Of a stretch of DNA of 64,000 nt, positions 27,327-58,942 are shown in pieces. Source of the DNA: Octopus vulgaris (lineage: Eukaryota). The translations under genes and the position numbers were made by a program. Below the pieces are notes generated by a model. That model saw nothing but the letters and a program-made list of their open reading frames with translations, was not told the DNA's origin and ran no database searches. The DNA is taken from positions 63,426,001 through 63,490,000 of the forward strand of contig OX597820.1 in assembly GCA_951406725.2 (NCBI GenBank), in the 5' to 3' direction. The number at the start of each line of letters is the position of its first letter. Position 1 is the first letter of the stretch.

Positions 27327-27367
27327 GCCGGACCATTTCAATCCTGTGTTGAGATTTCATCAGCGGC
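27327..27367 (-). ncRNA. Minimal type I hammerhead ribozyme
   Basis: Minus strand reads GCCG | CTGATGA | AATC-TCAACACAG-GATT | GAAA | TGG | TC | CGGC. Stems I and II are perfect 4-bp helices, the core is intact, the triplet is GUC, and stem III is vestigial. Confidence 0.75.
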
Positions 27368-42916: not shown

Positions 42917-45900
42917 TTACATTGATAGGGTTTTTCTAAGGATGTGGGCAGTACTTGTTAGCACAATCTTTTGGATTTCCTTGAGACATGGTTTTCCAGG
43001 GATATTGTCTAGGTGTTTCTGACATCCCTTTTTTATCATACCTAGGGCACCTACAATAACAGGAACAGTTTTTGTTTTAAGATTCCACATCCTCTGTATT
43101 TCGATTTCCAGGTCCTTATATTTACTAAGTTTGTCAAATTCCTTGACAGATACATTTTTATCAGTGGGGACGCTTACTTCTATTAGTCTGCAGGTATTTT
43201 CTTCCCTGTCTTTAACAATTATGTCTGGTCGATTAGCCTTGATCGTTCTGTCAGTGTTGACTGGAAAATCCCAGAGGATGGTGACATCTTTACCTTCAAC
43301 AACTGGCTGAGGATGGTGTTCATACCAGTTAGCAGGAGTGTCGGATTTGTAGTGTTTACATATCTTCCAATGTATATACTGTCCTACCCTATCGTGGCGA
43401 TTTTTGTATTCGTTTGGTGTCAGCACAGGACATCCCGAAACGAGATGGTCTATTGTTTCGTCAAATGTGTCACAGAATCTGCATTTAGGGTCAGTACCGT
43501 TTCGGAGAACGTTAGCCTGGTAATTTCTGGTAAACAAGCTTTGATCTTGTGCTGCCATTATGAAGCCTTCAGTCTCTGCTTTCAATCCAGAACTCTTCAG
43601 CCACTGATGGGTTGTTGCTTGGTCTACATCAGCATTTTGGCTTCGGAGAATGTATTGTCCATGCAGGGGCTTCTGGCTCCACCGCCTCTCAATTTGATTC
43701 TGCCCATTCTTTTTTGCAGTCTGCCTGATTCGCTTTGCTTGCTTGGTAGCAGTGGTTTCTGGCTCTTCACCTGATTCAAGGTTAATGCCTAGTTCCCTTT
43801 CGAACTTATAAGCTTCCTTGACAATAGAATGCAGCTTTTTGCTGCTTTCGTGTTCACACACAAGTCGCAGCATCCAGTCGTTTGTACTAGATAGGTACCT
43901 GTTCATTCCTACAGTAGAGGTCTTATAGCACAGCTCCAATTGCATCATTCCTCTCCCCCCGCTGCTTCTAGGTAGGTACAAGCGGTCTACATCTGCCTTA
44001 GGGTGGTGCATGCTCCTGGATGTCAGTAACTTTCTTGTCTTCCTGTCCAAGCGTTGGAGTTCCGTAAGGTTCCAGTTAATGATGTTAAAACTGTACTGGA
44101 CTACTGGAAGTGCCAGGGTGTTAATGGCCTCAATGCAATTTTTGGAGTTGAGTTCAGTCTTCAGTACAAGCCTTATTCTCCTATAGTACTCCTTTCTTAT
44201 TTTTTCCTTCATAGTAGCATGATGTATACCATCTCCTTCGTTGATTCCTAGGTATTTGTAGCTTTCTTGTGGGTCAAGTTCCTTGATGGTAGTGTCAATA
44301 TCTAATTTAACAGAAGCTGTTTGCCTGAGCTTGCCTCTTACAAAAGTTGCTTTAGCACACTTATCAAGGCCAAAATCCATTCCGATATCATTGCTAAACT
44401 CTTTAACAGTTGTTAGCAGCCCTTCTAGCTCTTGGTCATTCTTGGCAAACAGCTTTAGATCGTCCATATAAAAAAGGTGGTTTATTAACTTGCTAAAAAC
44501 TTTGTACCCATATCTGGCACTATCCAATTCGTTTGAGAGTGGGATCAGTGCCATGCAAAAAAGTAATGGAGAGAGGGAGTCACCTTGAAAGATGCCTCGT
44601 TTGATGTTGATGCTGTTGGACTGGCTCATCCCATTACTATGGCTTAGAAAGAGACGTGTGTTCCACATGGTCATGCTATTCTCTAAGAATTTTGAGACGA
44701 CAGGGGAGATCTTGTATATCTCAAGGGCCTTGAGTATCCATTTATGTGGGACACTGTCATACGCTTTCCTGTAGTCTATCCATGCCATACTCAGGTTTTT
44801 GTTTTTGCTCCGGCAATTCTCTACAATCATTCTGTTTATGAGCAATTGGTCTTTGCACCCATAAGAGTTTCTTTTACAACCTTTTTGAGCTTGTGGAAGG
44901 ATAGAATTTTGTTCAAGGAAAGCGTACATTCTCTCCGTTATTATGGATGTGAGGATTTTGTAGGTGGTGTTGAGACATGTTATTGGCCGGTAATTCTTTG
45001 GGTTTTTTGTGTCTTCGGTTTTAGGTAATAGGTAAGTGGTTCCTTCAGTCAGCCAAGCAGGTATTTGCTCTGGGTTCTGAATGACATCAGACAGAGATGC
45101 AGCGAGATGTTCGTGTACCTCTGTCAAACAATTCAGCCAGAAGTTAGGGATCCGATCCAGTCCTGGGGTTTTCCATTTATGAGCCTTCCTAAGGACACAC
45201 CTTAGCTCCTCTATTCCTATTGCTTCCCATTTCTGTTCTTCAAGTTCATCCAGTCTCTCTTTCTCACGTTCTATCCAGTCAGCCTCAGCATTAAACTCTT
45301 TTTCGTTGCTCCATACCTTCTTCCAGAACTCCTCCACTTCCTCAATCTTAGGTGGATCTTCTATGTGTATTTTATTTTTGCCAATTTCCCTATAAAATTT
45401 CTTTGCATCTGTCTTAAAAAATTTATTTTGTCGATAAAATTTGTTTCTTTTGTCATACCTTCTAAGCCGTTGAGCTTTCAACTGTATCCGTTGTTTCAAC
45501 AGTTCCTTAGTTGCAGGGAGGTTTATGAGATCTTTGATTTTATATTTTTGCTTGATTTTTCTAGCTTTTCTCGGCTTAATATTCACTCCTCTAGCAAGCT
45601 CATCGAGAACTGAAACATCCGCCCGCAGAGATTCAATCTCTTTTTGTATCGCTACTTTCCACTTAGGAGGTTCATTGACATGCCTGGCCTTTTTCTTTGT
45701 CATCTTAATACCTAGTTGGGTAGTTACTACTTTAGCAGTGGAATAAATGAGATTATTTAAGGTTGTCAAATCATTCCCCTTATTTCTTAAGATCTGTCCT
45801 AGGGCAACGTTATATGTCATGATTGTGTTGTTATTTCTTGTGCCATTTGAAAACTTTGGTAGTGGTTCTCTATTAACCATGTCAGTGAGCTCAATCTTGC

Positions 45901-46798
45901 CGAGTTCTCTCATAATGTCCACTTTTGCTTCCATAATCTTTTCTCTATTATTCACCTCAAATTCTATGTCATATCTATTTTGGTTTTCTTGAGGAAGGTC
46001 TACGTTCTCCTCTTTTTTCAAATCTCTCGTCTTCGCTATTCTTTGTTTAACTTCCCCATTGGGAAGTTGATTTGCCGCTTGTACACTGGCTTCTGTGCTA
46101 CTATTACCTATTTCGTCTACATTGTTGCTGTTTTCTTTTGGTCTACCATGAGCTATTAGTGTCCTAATTTTGTCAATTTCAGCGTCAGTTAGTCTTTTGT
46201 TTTTAATTATATCTCTGCGTACATTACTTAATTTATTTGCGTCTATATATCTACGTACGTCATTGCCTACTGAATTTCTCCATGAGATGTATGTTTGTAC
46301 ACTGAGGTTATTGTTTGGGTTTAGTTGGGCTGTATAAAAAGCTTTCAACACATCTCTATAGTCCTCTCTGGTCCATTTTATACGTTTTGCTTTAGGTGGT
46401 GTTTTTGGTGGTGTCACTACAAGTCCAGAGTTAGAAGTATTCTGGTTCTGGTCACCTGGTAGATCGTCTTTTTGAGAGTTTGTTCCAGCAGCAAACTTTT
46501 CGACCCCAGTCTGGTTCCCTACTGGGTAACGCGGTCCTTGTTGTCCCGGGCGATGACCGATCCGGCATGATTTTTGGCTTGTTTTCATTAAATGATTGAC
46601 GGCGACATCAGAGGGGTCCATTTTTTCAGAGTCAACTTTTTGACAAGACGCCGCTTCTGTGACGGTGACAGGGTCAATTTTTTGACAAAACACCGCTTCT
46701 GAATTCTCCGAATTAATATATTGTTCATATCGAACTCGCATAAGACTTACAGATCGAAATTCGCCTCTATTTCTTTTGGTAGTCATGTTTCCGGGCAT
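42917..46798 (-). CDS. Reverse transcriptase with CCHC zinc knuckle and restriction-enzyme-like endonuclease (1293 aa)
   Basis: Motifs WKTPGLD, NYRPITCL, WIDYRKAYDSVPH, GIFQGDSLSPLLF, HLFYMDDLKL, YKYLG, CRFC..DETIDHLVSGC, RHD and RPDIIV..CRLIEVSVP..K.SKY. No stops or frameshifts. Confidence 0.96.
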   Translation of the reverse strand: MPGNMTTKRNRGEFRSVSLMRVRYEQYINSENSEAVFCQKIDPVTVTEAASCQKVDSEKMDPSDVAVNHLMKTSQKSCRIGHRPGQQGPRYPVGNQTGVEKFAAGTNSQKDDLPGDQNQNTSNSGLVVTPPKTPPKAKRIKWTREDYRDVLKAFYTAQLNPNNNLSVQTYISWRNSVGNDVRRYIDANKLSNVRRDIIKNKRLTDAEIDKIRTLIAHGRPKENSNNVDEIGNSSTEASVQAANQLPNGEVKQRIAKTRDLKKEENVDLPQENQNRYDIEFEVNNREKIMEAKVDIMRELGKIELTDMVNREPLPKFSNGTRNNNTIMTYNVALGQILRNKGNDLTTLNNLIYSTAKVVTTQLGIKMTKKKARHVNEPPKWKVAIQKEIESLRADVSVLDELARGVNIKPRKARKIKQKYKIKDLINLPATKELLKQRIQLKAQRLRRYDKRNKFYRQNKFFKTDAKKFYREIGKNKIHIEDPPKIEEVEEFWKKVWSNEKEFNAEADWIEREKERLDELEEQKWEAIGIEELRCVLRKAHKWKTPGLDRIPNFWLNCLTEVHEHLAASLSDVIQNPEQIPAWLTEGTTYLLPKTEDTKNPKNYRPITCLNTTYKILTSIITERMYAFLEQNSILPQAQKGCKRNSYGCKDQLLINRMIVENCRSKNKNLSMAWIDYRKAYDSVPHKWILKALEIYKISPVVSKFLENSMTMWNTRLFLSHSNGMSQSNSINIKRGIFQGDSLSPLLFCMALIPLSNELDSARYGYKVFSKLINHLFYMDDLKLFAKNDQELEGLLTTVKEFSNDIGMDFGLDKCAKATFVRGKLRQTASVKLDIDTTIKELDPQESYKYLGINEGDGIHHATMKEKIRKEYYRRIRLVLKTELNSKNCIEAINTLALPVVQYSFNIINWNLTELQRLDRKTRKLLTSRSMHHPKADVDRLYLPRSSGGRGMMQLELCYKTSTVGMNRYLSSTNDWMLRLVCEHESSKKLHSIVKEAYKFERELGINLESGEEPETTATKQAKRIRQTAKKNGQNQIERRWSQKPLHGQYILRSQNADVDQATTHQWLKSSGLKAETEGFIMAAQDQSLFTRNYQANVLRNGTDPKCRFCDTFDETIDHLVSGCPVLTPNEYKNRHDRVGQYIHWKICKHYKSDTPANWYEHHPQPVVEGKDVTILWDFPVNTDRTIKANRPDIIVKDREENTCRLIEVSVPTDKNVSVKEFDKLSKYKDLEIEIQRMWNLKTKTVPVIVGALGMIKKGCQKHLDNIPGKPCLKEIQKIVLTSTAHILRKTLSM

Positions 46799-46949
46799 AA
46801 CTGTGTAGTGACTTTCTAAATTCAGTGACCAATTTTCTCTTTTTTGCGTTTGTTCGTGAAAAATCGCTTTGTTTTTGTTTTGTTTTCGTCCGCGTAACGT
46901 GGTTTTTCCTTCTGTGTGTACGTGTGAGCGCGTGTATGCATTATTTATG

Positions 46950-47047
46950 CTTTATAATTAAAATGTGTACATGTATGCACAAACAGTTGCATGTATACTT
47001 TATAATTAAAATGTGTACGTGTATGCATAAACAGTTGCATGTATACT
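46950..47047. repeat. 48-bp tandem duplication in the LINE 5' UTR
   Basis: CTTTATAATTAAAATGTGTAC.TGTATGCA.AAACAGTTGCATGTATA occurs twice. Confidence 0.85.
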
Positions 47048-58032: not shown

Positions 58033-58100
<68 letters not shown>

Positions 58101-58146
58101 AAACAAGTCAAAAATAGAAAATGCTAAGATGATTTTATAGTGAATC

Positions 58147-58190
58147 TTTCAGTACCGGTTTCGGTCATTTTGAGACCTTTTCAACTGTAA
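58147..58190 (-). ncRNA. Identical hammerhead copy on the opposite arm
   Basis: Exact reverse complement of 58420-58463. Confidence 0.7.
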
Positions 58191-58419
58191 CGATTAAATA
58201 ATTAATTTAGAAAAATTTAGAAAAATTAGAAGAAAGGTTTTTTTAAAGGAATTCTTCCAAGTGTTCAATAAATTTGTTTGCACTTGTGCAAAAGTGCAAA
58301 CAAGGGAGTCAGAGAAAGGCAGAATGCCACCTATATCTGAACACTACTATGGAAGAATTCCTTTAAAAAAACCTTTCTTCTAATTTTTCTAAATTTTTCT
58401 AAATTTAATTATTTAATCG

Positions 58420-58463
58420 TTACAGTTGAAAAGGTCTCAAAATGACCGAAACCGGTACTGAAA
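58420..58463 (+). ncRNA. Minimal type I hammerhead ribozyme, U3-A8 core variant
   Basis: TTACAG | TTGAAAA | GGTC-TCAAAAT-GACC | GAAA | CCGG | TA | CTGAAA, with palindromic ACCGGT in stem III. Confidence 0.7.
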
Positions 58464-58591
58464 GATTCACTATAAAATCATCTTAGCATTTTCTATTTTT
58501 GACTTGTTTTTTCATATATATCAACTCGTGTGTTCCTTTCCACCCTTATACATATATATATATATATACACATTATATATATGTATATATA

Positions 58592-58657
<66 letters not shown>

Positions 58658-58842: not shown

Positions 58843-58942
58843 NNNNNNNNNNNNNNNNNNNNNNNNNNNNNNNNNNNNNNNNNNNNNNNNNNNNNNNNNN
58901 NNNNNNNNNNNNNNNNNNNNNNNNNNNNNNNNNNNNNNNNNN
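58843..58942. other. Assembly gap (100 N)
   Basis: Run of N. Confidence 1.

What the first reader, a model, noticed from the sequence alone, without database searches (positions are those of the whole stretch)
58097..58513. Bidirectional hammerhead hairpin with compensatory U3-A8 core
Both arms carry UUGAAAA in place of CUGANGA. Established: positions 3 and 8 form a tertiary Watson-Crick pair, so C3-G8 to U3-A8 is compensatory. That argues for selection on catalysis, and canonical-core searches would miss it. Either strand's transcript contains one ribozyme plus its exact antisense, so hairpin formation could switch cleavage off depending on direction and timing (inference).
Basis: partly seen in the sequence, partly recalled or inferred. 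Interest (0 to 1): 0.75.

Follow-up and report, generated by a model that had tools for sequence, protein, structure and literature searches.

The report
Inverted Penelope retroelement end with hammerhead
This hairpin is an ordinary remnant of a Penelope-type jumping gene: two short copies of the element's end lie head to head in a TA microsatellite, each carrying a published variant of a likely self-cutting RNA motif that the hairpin is predicted to lock shut in both directions rather than switch.

Summary
In detail: both arms carry UUGAAAA in a type I hammerhead frame, with the predicted cut after 58457. The hairpin is two 5'-truncated end repeats (pLTRs) of a Penelope-like retroelement (RT plus GIY-YIG, Neptune-type linker, 4.4-kb unit), inserted head to head in (TA)n. 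The exact motif has 1,820 genome matches.

U3-A8 is a real covariation. Stem I covaries across 13 motifs (35 of 39 pairs), and U3-A8 outnumbers C3-G8 by 9,007 to 175 among ACCGGU-stem-III motifs. However, U3-A8 in Penelope hammerheads and nearby opposite-strand pairs were published in 2014 (PMC4209133), and one C3-A8 mismatch subfamily did amplify.

The switch is not supported. The antisense arm is transcribed first on both strands, and ribozyme stems get probability 0.0 in read-through RNA. Arm lengths run from about 110 to 3,500 nt across 20 unselected pairs, so the geometry is an insertion by-product. Those 20 pairs each carry the tail on exactly one arm.

The scan noted such insertions before on other DNA. 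Cleavage is untested. New member of a known kind; low interest.

The parts
58036..58096 (.). (TA)n microsatellite, left flank of the insertion (target)
   Evidence: sequence; TA runs flank the ends of related insertions
58097..58288 (-). 5'-truncated copy of the Penelope-like pLTR ending at start site 1 (no tail); small deletions near the apex
   Evidence: window maps to parent unit 4378 down to about 4224
58134..58198 (-). type I hammerhead motif with U3-A8 core, minus-strand copy; predicted cut between 58153 and 58152
   Evidence: mirror of the + copy
58289..58513 (+). 5'-truncated copy of the pLTR (in the full element: 3' end of one unit, 5' leader of the next ORF1)
   Evidence: 99% match of query 193-418 to 11 longer copies; adjoining RT/GIY-YIG ORFs; upstream of the ORF1 ATG
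58412..58476 (+). type I hammerhead motif: stem I 58423-25/58458-60, U3-A9 58426-32, stem II 58433-36/58444-47, GAAA 58448-51, palindromic stem III ACCGGT 58451-56, A17 58457 (predicted cut after it)
   Evidence: (monomer stem II probability 0.95, stem I 0.76)
58514..58552 (+). one-sided 'tail' between the two fixed 3' ends (38 nt between sites; unique part 58522-58551); both ends sit on short TA runs of the element
58553..58627 (.). (TA)-rich microsatellite, right flank (target)

Best explanation
The hairpin is a truncated insertion of a Penelope-like retroelement in a (TA)n run: two short copies of its end repeat lie head to head, likely made as two cDNAs primed from the two cut target strands, and each carries a U3-A8 hammerhead that is predicted to be locked in the hairpin whichever strand is transcribed. 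[quoted passage not shown] Shown: inverted insertions end at two fixed points 38 nt apart, one per arm, and are truncated at variable points inside. Inferred: an RT-endonuclease dimer cuts both strands of (TA)n, each 3' end pairs with a short TA run at one of the two start sites, and the two prematurely ended cDNAs are joined. Inferred: the ribozyme belongs to the parent's RNA cycle and works weakly, as a dimer through the ACCGGU palindrome or with protein help. Inferred: the template RNA was uncut or re-ligated at the ribozyme, since every arm runs through the cut site. Inferred, weaker: read-through hairpin RNA of this family is an ADAR substrate rather than an active ribozyme.
For: Parent: RVT_1 E 4.1e-08 and a sub-cutoff GIY-YIG hit (E 0.005) in L035; arrays with a period of about 4.4 kb. 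Copy number: 1,820 exact-pattern matches, control 0. Of the first 100 listed, 21 neighbouring pairs within 10 kb are head to head (185-4,279 bp apart) against 4 in other orientations. In 20 of 20 such pairs fetched (20 of the 21) the tail is on exactly one arm, 10 left and 10 right, with arms of about 110-3,500 nt; the 21st pair, L040, also has one tail. Arms of a pair share subfamily variants (72 shared, 17 unshared in 41 pairs), and the window's private A at 58356 is in both arms. Folding: stems 0.0 in read-through RNA on both strands; intermolecular ACCGGU duplex -10.3 kcal/mol; monomer active-like fold -0.2. Literature: inverted 5'-truncated copy, 30-40 bp one-sided tail and microsatellite bias (bioRxiv 2021.04.23.441226); two RT start sites delimit the tail, both strands are cut and extended, and the hammerhead is protein-assisted and not needed in vitro (PMC11167929).
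Against: No cleavage assay. The two-cDNA model is inferred from insertion anatomy. PMC11167929 reports initiation at sites not homologous to the target, unlike the TA microhomology seen here. Stem I is only 3 firm pairs, and its distal extension AAUC/GAUU is broken in a common subfamily (G58464T, A58465G in 15 of 41 pairs). An amplified C3-A8 retrozyme subfamily (repeated rows and a 360-bp tandem array among the 100 listed of 266) shows the 3-8 pair is not always required for spread. The GIY-YIG Pfam hit is below its cutoff. Neptune placement rests on a motif, with no tree. The editing hint is family-level, from contigs, and absent in 2 of 5 guessed-RNA runs.
Confidence: 0.9

Rival explanations
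1. One reading: a selected bidirectional switch in which hairpin formation turns cleavage on or off by direction and timing.
For: A transcript that starts inside the loop (58289) can fold stem II (0.93) and partly stem I (0.40), so an internal start or strong co-transcriptional trapping could free one ribozyme. The two motifs are intact and identical.
Against: The antisense arm precedes the ribozyme on both strands and stems are 0.0 in read-through RNA. Junctions differ in each of the 41 pairs examined. Single arms decay at core positions, e.g. G5 in L021 and G16.2 in L013, and both arms of L030 carry A17G. No host gene was identified next to the element (ORF listing only).
Confidence: 0.03
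2. The motif keeps a hammerhead fold but is catalytically negligible in vivo; it is retained as a structure (for example for protein binding) or by descent. This rivals only the catalysis step.
For: Minimal Penelope hammerheads cleave poorly even as dimers (PMC4209133). Catalytic mutants do not affect insertion in vitro, and no RNA-seq ends were found at the cut site (PMC11167929). 0 of 20 copies holding the ORF1 start begin at the cut site. C3-A8 copies amplified, and related families have poorly formed stem II (L102, L114).
Against: Core 17 of 17 conserved against 65% in flanks. Stem I covaries, 35 of 39, with 0 of 20,000 shuffles reaching it (related motifs inflate this). UUGAUAA against CUGACGA in relatives 290/342 identical. 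U3-A8 is described as active in vitro (PMC3088659 passage).
Confidence: 0.25
3. The second arm arose by fold-back self-priming or by copying the first arm, not from a second target-primed cDNA. This rivals only the origin of the inversion.
For: Both arms share the private A at 58356, and arms nearly always share haplotype. The apex holds a short palindrome. Self-priming was proposed for Penelope inverted junctions (PMC3846280).
Against: Either arm can be far longer than the other and hold sequence the other lacks, including the tail (L119, L130, L132), which simple fold-back copying of one arm cannot supply.
Confidence: 0.15
4. A MITE or foldback DNA transposon with TA target duplication and a chance hammerhead look-alike.
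For: Long terminal inverted repeats in TA context.
Against: The arms are contiguous with RT/GIY-YIG ORFs in longer copies, the ends are asymmetric, and lengths form a continuum.
Confidence: 0.01

Closest known systems
U3-A8 minimal hammerheads of Cercyon Penelope-like elements in Schistosoma mansoni (Cervera and De la Pena 2014, PMC4209133; parts 1-2 of 4 read, supplements not seen)
   Same: Type I motif in pLTRs, U3-A8 instead of C3-G8 (about 1,300 hits there), dual motifs 100-700 bp apart on opposite strands, short palindromic helix III, dimer requirement.
   Different: Here stem II is 4 bp with no extra base after A9, loop II is UCAAAAU, and stem III is ACCGGU. U3-A8 is the majority form of its class in this genome (9,007 against 175) and spans several retroelement and retrozyme families.
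Inverted 5'-truncated insertions with one-sided tail of endonuclease-bearing Penelope-like elements (bioRxiv 2021.04.23.441226, passages; PMC3846280, passages)
   Same: Inverted 5'-truncated copy next to a direct copy, 30-40 bp tail on one end, partial tandems, microsatellite targeting, CX2-5CxxC linker before GIY-YIG as in Neptune and Nematis.
   Different: The one-tail rule is strict in this sample (20 of 20). The unit has a separate 411-aa ORF1 joined to RT-EN by a putative -1 slippery site.
Poseidon PAc of Anolis (Frangieh et al. 2024, PMC11167929; parts 1-2 of 4 read)
   Same: Two internal RT start sites delimiting the tail, both target strands cut and extended, hammerhead upstream of the start sites.
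   Different: PAc has C3-G8, its ORF starts within the ribozyme, and its start sites are not homologous to the target. Here both start sites lie on short TA runs matching the (TA)n target, and the ATG is about 130 nt downstream.
Natural U3-A8 hammerheads (Perreault et al. 2011, PMC3088659; passages)
   Same: Covariation of the 3-8 pair observed in nature and described as active in vitro.
   Different: Reported there as several examples; here thousands of copies in one genome.

Membership tests
Penelope-like elements (EN+) | Reverse transcriptase followed by C-terminal GIY-YIG endonuclease in the parent | tested here: met
   RVT_1 E 4.1e-08; GIY-YIG E 0.005, below cutoff, residues 767-854 of the L035 ORF; YIGQT motif visible
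Penelope-like elements (EN+) | Tandem or partial-tandem units forming pLTRs | tested here: met
   Arrays with about 4.4-kb period on C9 and C2
Penelope-like elements (EN+) | Inverted 5'-truncated copy and 30-40 bp tail on one end | tested here: met
   20 of 20 unselected pairs and the window
Penelope-like elements (EN+) | Hammerhead motif in the pLTR | tested here: met
Neptune clade | CX2-5CxxC Zn-finger-like linker between RT and EN | tested here: met
   CGRPNCGIC upstream of the GIY-YIG motif; definition. Shared with Nematis and Naiad endonucleases
Neptune clade | RT phylogenetic placement | not tested
   No labelled reference RTs were fetched; Neptune is itself paraphyletic in the cited tree
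Hammerhead ribozyme, type I | Core U4 G5 A6, A9, G12 A13 A14, A15.1-U16.1, H17 and a Watson-Crick 3-8 pair | tested here: met
   17 of 17 conserved in an older family
Hammerhead ribozyme, type I | Stems I and II supported by covariation | tested here: met
   Stem I 35 of 39 in 13 U3-A8 motifs; stem II 4 of 4 in 8 of 13, weak in L102 and L114
Hammerhead ribozyme, type I | Stable stem III as a monomer | tested here: not met
   2-nt loop; active-like monomer -0.2 kcal/mol, intermolecular ACCGGU duplex -10.3: the dimer-type subclass
Hammerhead ribozyme, type I | Self-cleavage at H17 | not testable with these tools
   Only assembled contigs were available, which cannot show RNA ends
MITE / foldback DNA transposon | Symmetric ends and uniform size, no RT parent | tested here: not met
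   Asymmetric tail, arms of 110-3,500 nt, RT parent
Non-LTR retrozyme | Short non-coding tandem monomer of a few hundred nt | tested here: not met
   The repeat unit is the 4.4-kb coding element; true retrozyme-like arrays exist separately (L112)

The most novel reading that the evidence does not exclude
This family is a clean natural record of Penelope integration. One RT-endonuclease dimer primes two cDNAs from one uncut or re-ligated RNA, always one from each of two fixed start sites, using TA microhomology with the cut (TA)n strands. The resulting foldbacks silence their own ribozymes and feed ADAR, which edits the A-rich U3-A8 core (A6-A9). The genome also preserves the evolutionary path C3-G8 to C3-A8 to U3-A8 in amplifying families.
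Probability: 0.35. Interest if true: 0.45.

Novelty: new member of a known kind. Interest (0 to 1): 0.2.

Why it matters
As a locus it is ordinary, one of well over a thousand copies. As a family it offers three modest things. First, hammerhead censuses that fix CUGANGA would miss about 98% of the paired-core ACCGGU-class motifs in this genome (9,007 U3-A8 against 175 C3-G8). Second, the strict one-tail-per-insertion rule and the TA microhomology at both start sites make the unresolved Penelope integration mechanism testable. Third, thousands of such foldbacks are a plausible source of the long double-stranded RNA that ADAR hyper-edits (general link: PMC5625713 passages).

Tried and rejected
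Rfam at gathering score: 0 hits in the window. My first relaxed descriptor printed nothing because of a regex fault and was rewritten. The pattern left position 3 open to U, C and G instead of excluding U as intended; I used its counts as they stand (10,850, control 454) and ran the four 3-8 combinations separately. One repeated match class (CUGAUUA, L105) has no stem I and was rejected as a hammerhead; its variants also inflate the C3-A8 count.

Cleaved RNA as template: 0 of 20 ORF1-bearing copies start at the cut site; four run past the fetched flank. Sequencing runs: no RNA holder listed; only contigs, so no starts, ends or strand. No host gene was found among ORFs at 45-64 kb other than a LINE; splicing was not modelled. 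No strong stimulatory structure was found 3' of the slippery site (-1.8 and -6.9 kcal/mol).

Lunse et al. (PMC5785218) is not held; only its title was seen in a reference list, and it may already describe such variants. PMC7151607 had no bearing. Literature searches: 'U3-A8' gave 1 paper; octopus + hammerhead + Penelope gave 1 work; Neptune + Penelope + ribosomal frameshift gave 0; one search returned only viral papers. Structure prediction and large protein searches were not used.

Full report
Observation. The window holds a near-perfect inverted repeat: 58097-58259 pairs with the right arm ending at 58513 over 163 nt with one 1-nt indel, and pairing continues with small deletions to the apex near 58288. 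Each arm carries TTGAAAA GGTC TCAAAAT GACC GAAA CCGG TA, flanked by CAG/CTG. This is a type I hammerhead frame with U3 and A8, a 4-bp stem II, a palindromic stem III and A17 at 58457. Rfam gives no gathering-level hit in the window. At relaxed threshold both arms match Hammerhead_HH9 end to end (E 0.0029).

It is a repeat. A DNA search of the own genome (2.8 Gb, 227 contigs; probably a cephalopod, my unverified guess) gave 1,068 candidates, of which 40 were scored. The 34-nt motif with positions 3, 7 and 8 free has 910 + 910 matches and 0 in the reversed control; 99 of the 100 listed read UUGAAAA.

The parent. Of 11 longer copies fetched, several continue into an ORF with reverse transcriptase and GIY-YIG motifs (RVT_1 E 4.1e-08, GIY-YIG E 0.005 and below cutoff). 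The linker CGRPNCGIC fits the CX2-5CxxC motif of Neptune and Nematis elements (definition); no tree was built. Head-to-tail arrays have a period of about 4.4 kb, with the hammerhead about 130 nt upstream of a 411-aa ORF1, followed by RT-EN in another frame. The window's arms are therefore 5'-truncated pLTR copies of a Penelope-like element.

The hairpin is an insertion by-product. Among the first 100 listed motifs on C1, 21 neighbouring pairs within 10 kb are head to head, 185-4,279 bp apart, against 4 in other orientations. I fetched 20 of the 21. In all 20 the tail is on exactly one arm (10 left, 10 right), the 3' ends fall at two fixed points 38 nt apart, and arm lengths vary from about 110 to 3,500 nt. 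The 21st pair (L040) also has one tail. Twenty-one short hairpins chosen by similarity to the window (the window among them) have differing junctions. Over 41 pairs, arms share subfamily variants (72 shared, 17 unshared), while private changes are mostly one-armed (26 against 3) and include core positions. The window's A at 58356 is private among the loci held and is in both arms; runs covering that place read almost only T. This anatomy is described in print: an inverted 5'-truncated copy, a 30-40 bp tail on one end and microsatellite bias (bioRxiv 2021.04.23.441226, passages; PMC3846280, passages). In vitro, a Poseidon protein cuts and extends both strands and starts at two internal sites that delimit the tail (PMC11167929, parts 1-2 of 4). 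I infer two cDNAs from one source, one per target strand. Both start sites here lie on short TA runs, which suggests pairing with the cut target, whereas the Poseidon study found no homology.

U3-A8 is a real covariation, and known. An older family (37 copies) keeps 17 of 17 core positions against 114 of 175 flank positions, and swaps G10.1-C11.1 for A-U. With the stem III word ACCGGU fixed, genome counts are: U3-A8 9,007 (control 48), C3-G8 175 (21), U3-G8 174 (26) and C3-A8 266 (36). These count copies, not independent events. From 22 loci picked by eye for diversity, 19 distinct motifs remained, 13 of them U3-A8. In these, position 7 is free and stem I pairs in 35 of 39 cells against 19+-3 in shuffles (0 of 20,000 reach it; relatedness inflates this). 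Stem II is fully paired in 8 of 13. Two retrozyme-like relatives 290/342 identical read UUGAUAA and CUGACGA. Against strict selection: a C3-A8 subfamily appears repeatedly, including a 360-bp tandem array, and stem II is poor in some families. Natural U3-A8 was reported in PMC3088659 (passage). PMC4209133 (parts 1-2 of 4) reports it in Penelope pLTRs, about 1,300 hits, along with opposite-strand pairs 100-700 bp apart and low activity that needs dimers. Its supplements, and Lunse et al. (not held), may bear further on novelty.

The switch fails on geometry. In a head-to-head repeat each strand is transcribed antisense arm first. Pair probabilities for stems I and II are 0.76 and 0.95 in the isolated motif, 0.40 and 0.93 for a transcript starting in the loop, and 0.0 in four read-through transcripts covering both strands. 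These are equilibrium models without kinetics. The monomer cannot form a stable stem III (-0.2 kcal/mol), while the ACCGGU duplex between two molecules gives -10.3. Every arm runs through the cut site, so its template was uncut or re-ligated, and 0 of 20 ORF1-bearing copies start at the cut. This agrees with the report that cleavage is not needed for insertion in vitro.

RNA hint. No run is on record as RNA. Of 5 guessed-RNA runs laid, X3, X7 and X11 show 12-15 A>G/T>C places, and X1 and X5 show 0 and 2. Three deep unlabelled runs show 2-4. Some of the excess comes from single diverged contigs. In X3, five records continue after 58428 with GGGGGGTCTCAGA where the DNA reads AAAAGGTCTCAAA, as hyper-editing of A6-A9 would give. 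This is family-level, without matched DNA, and only a hint. Editing of palindromic repeats is established (PMC5625713, passages).

Verdict. This is a new family member of a known kind. The regulatory reading is not supported. Earlier notes of this scan reached similar readings on other DNA; I treat them as leads only. I also read part 1 of 5 of bioRxiv 10.64898/2026.07.22.740005 and passages of PMC6765202 for background.

Noticed in passing
L062/L063 (G000:C9 array), ORF1/RT-EN junction; L108:2813-2825: ORF1 (411 aa, no Pfam family) and RT-EN overlap in the -1 frame with a U UUU UUA heptamer in the right phase, in 31 of 31 family anchor matches (overlapping loci included) and in the diverged family of L108. 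Likely programmed -1 frameshift. L035 has the ORFs fused; no strong downstream structure was found. Not found in print, though mentions ORF1 frameshifts in some Penelope-like types.
   Followed up: partly
window 27328-27366, minus strand: A second hammerhead-like motif with canonical CUGAUGA core, stem I CCG/CGG and stem II AAUC/GAUU; missed by Rfam at gathering score.
   Followed up: no
G000:C4:80857199-80857948; C3:8250915-8251260; C1:23282300; L110; L112: Retrozyme-like 360-bp family with cores CUGACGA, CUGACAA (mismatched 3-8, yet in a tandem array), UUGACAA and UUGAUAA: a possible stepwise path between C3-G8 and U3-A8.
   Followed up: partly
L086:1336 (+): Hammerhead-like motif with a G3-C8 core (GUGAACA), paired stems I and II and a palindromic ATAT stem III.
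   Followed up: no
L097, L099, L100, L102, L108, L114, L115: U3-A8 families with good stem I (3-7 bp) but a U-U first pair or a poorly formed stem II; L108 carries an RT ORF between inverted ends.
   Followed up: partly
window 42917-46951, minus strand: Uninterrupted 1,344-aa frame with reverse transcriptase motifs and a C-terminal restriction-like endonuclease signature, likely a young non-LTR retrotransposon (family not tested).
   Followed up: no
L032:2658-4395: A second, unrelated Penelope-like family forming its own inverted insertion in (TA)n about 0.7 kb from a copy of this family; my descriptor found no standard hammerhead in it.
   Followed up: no
L030 both arms; L008 minus arm: L030 has A17G at the cleavage site in both arms; L008 has one arm rearranged at stem III.
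   Followed up: no
L105:1809-1835: A dispersed GC-richer repeat with CUGAUUA...GAAACCGGUC but no stem I; 10 of the first 100 rows, counted by eye; not a standard hammerhead.
   Followed up: no
window 58844-58942: Assembly gap of N about 300 bp downstream of the element.
   Followed up: no
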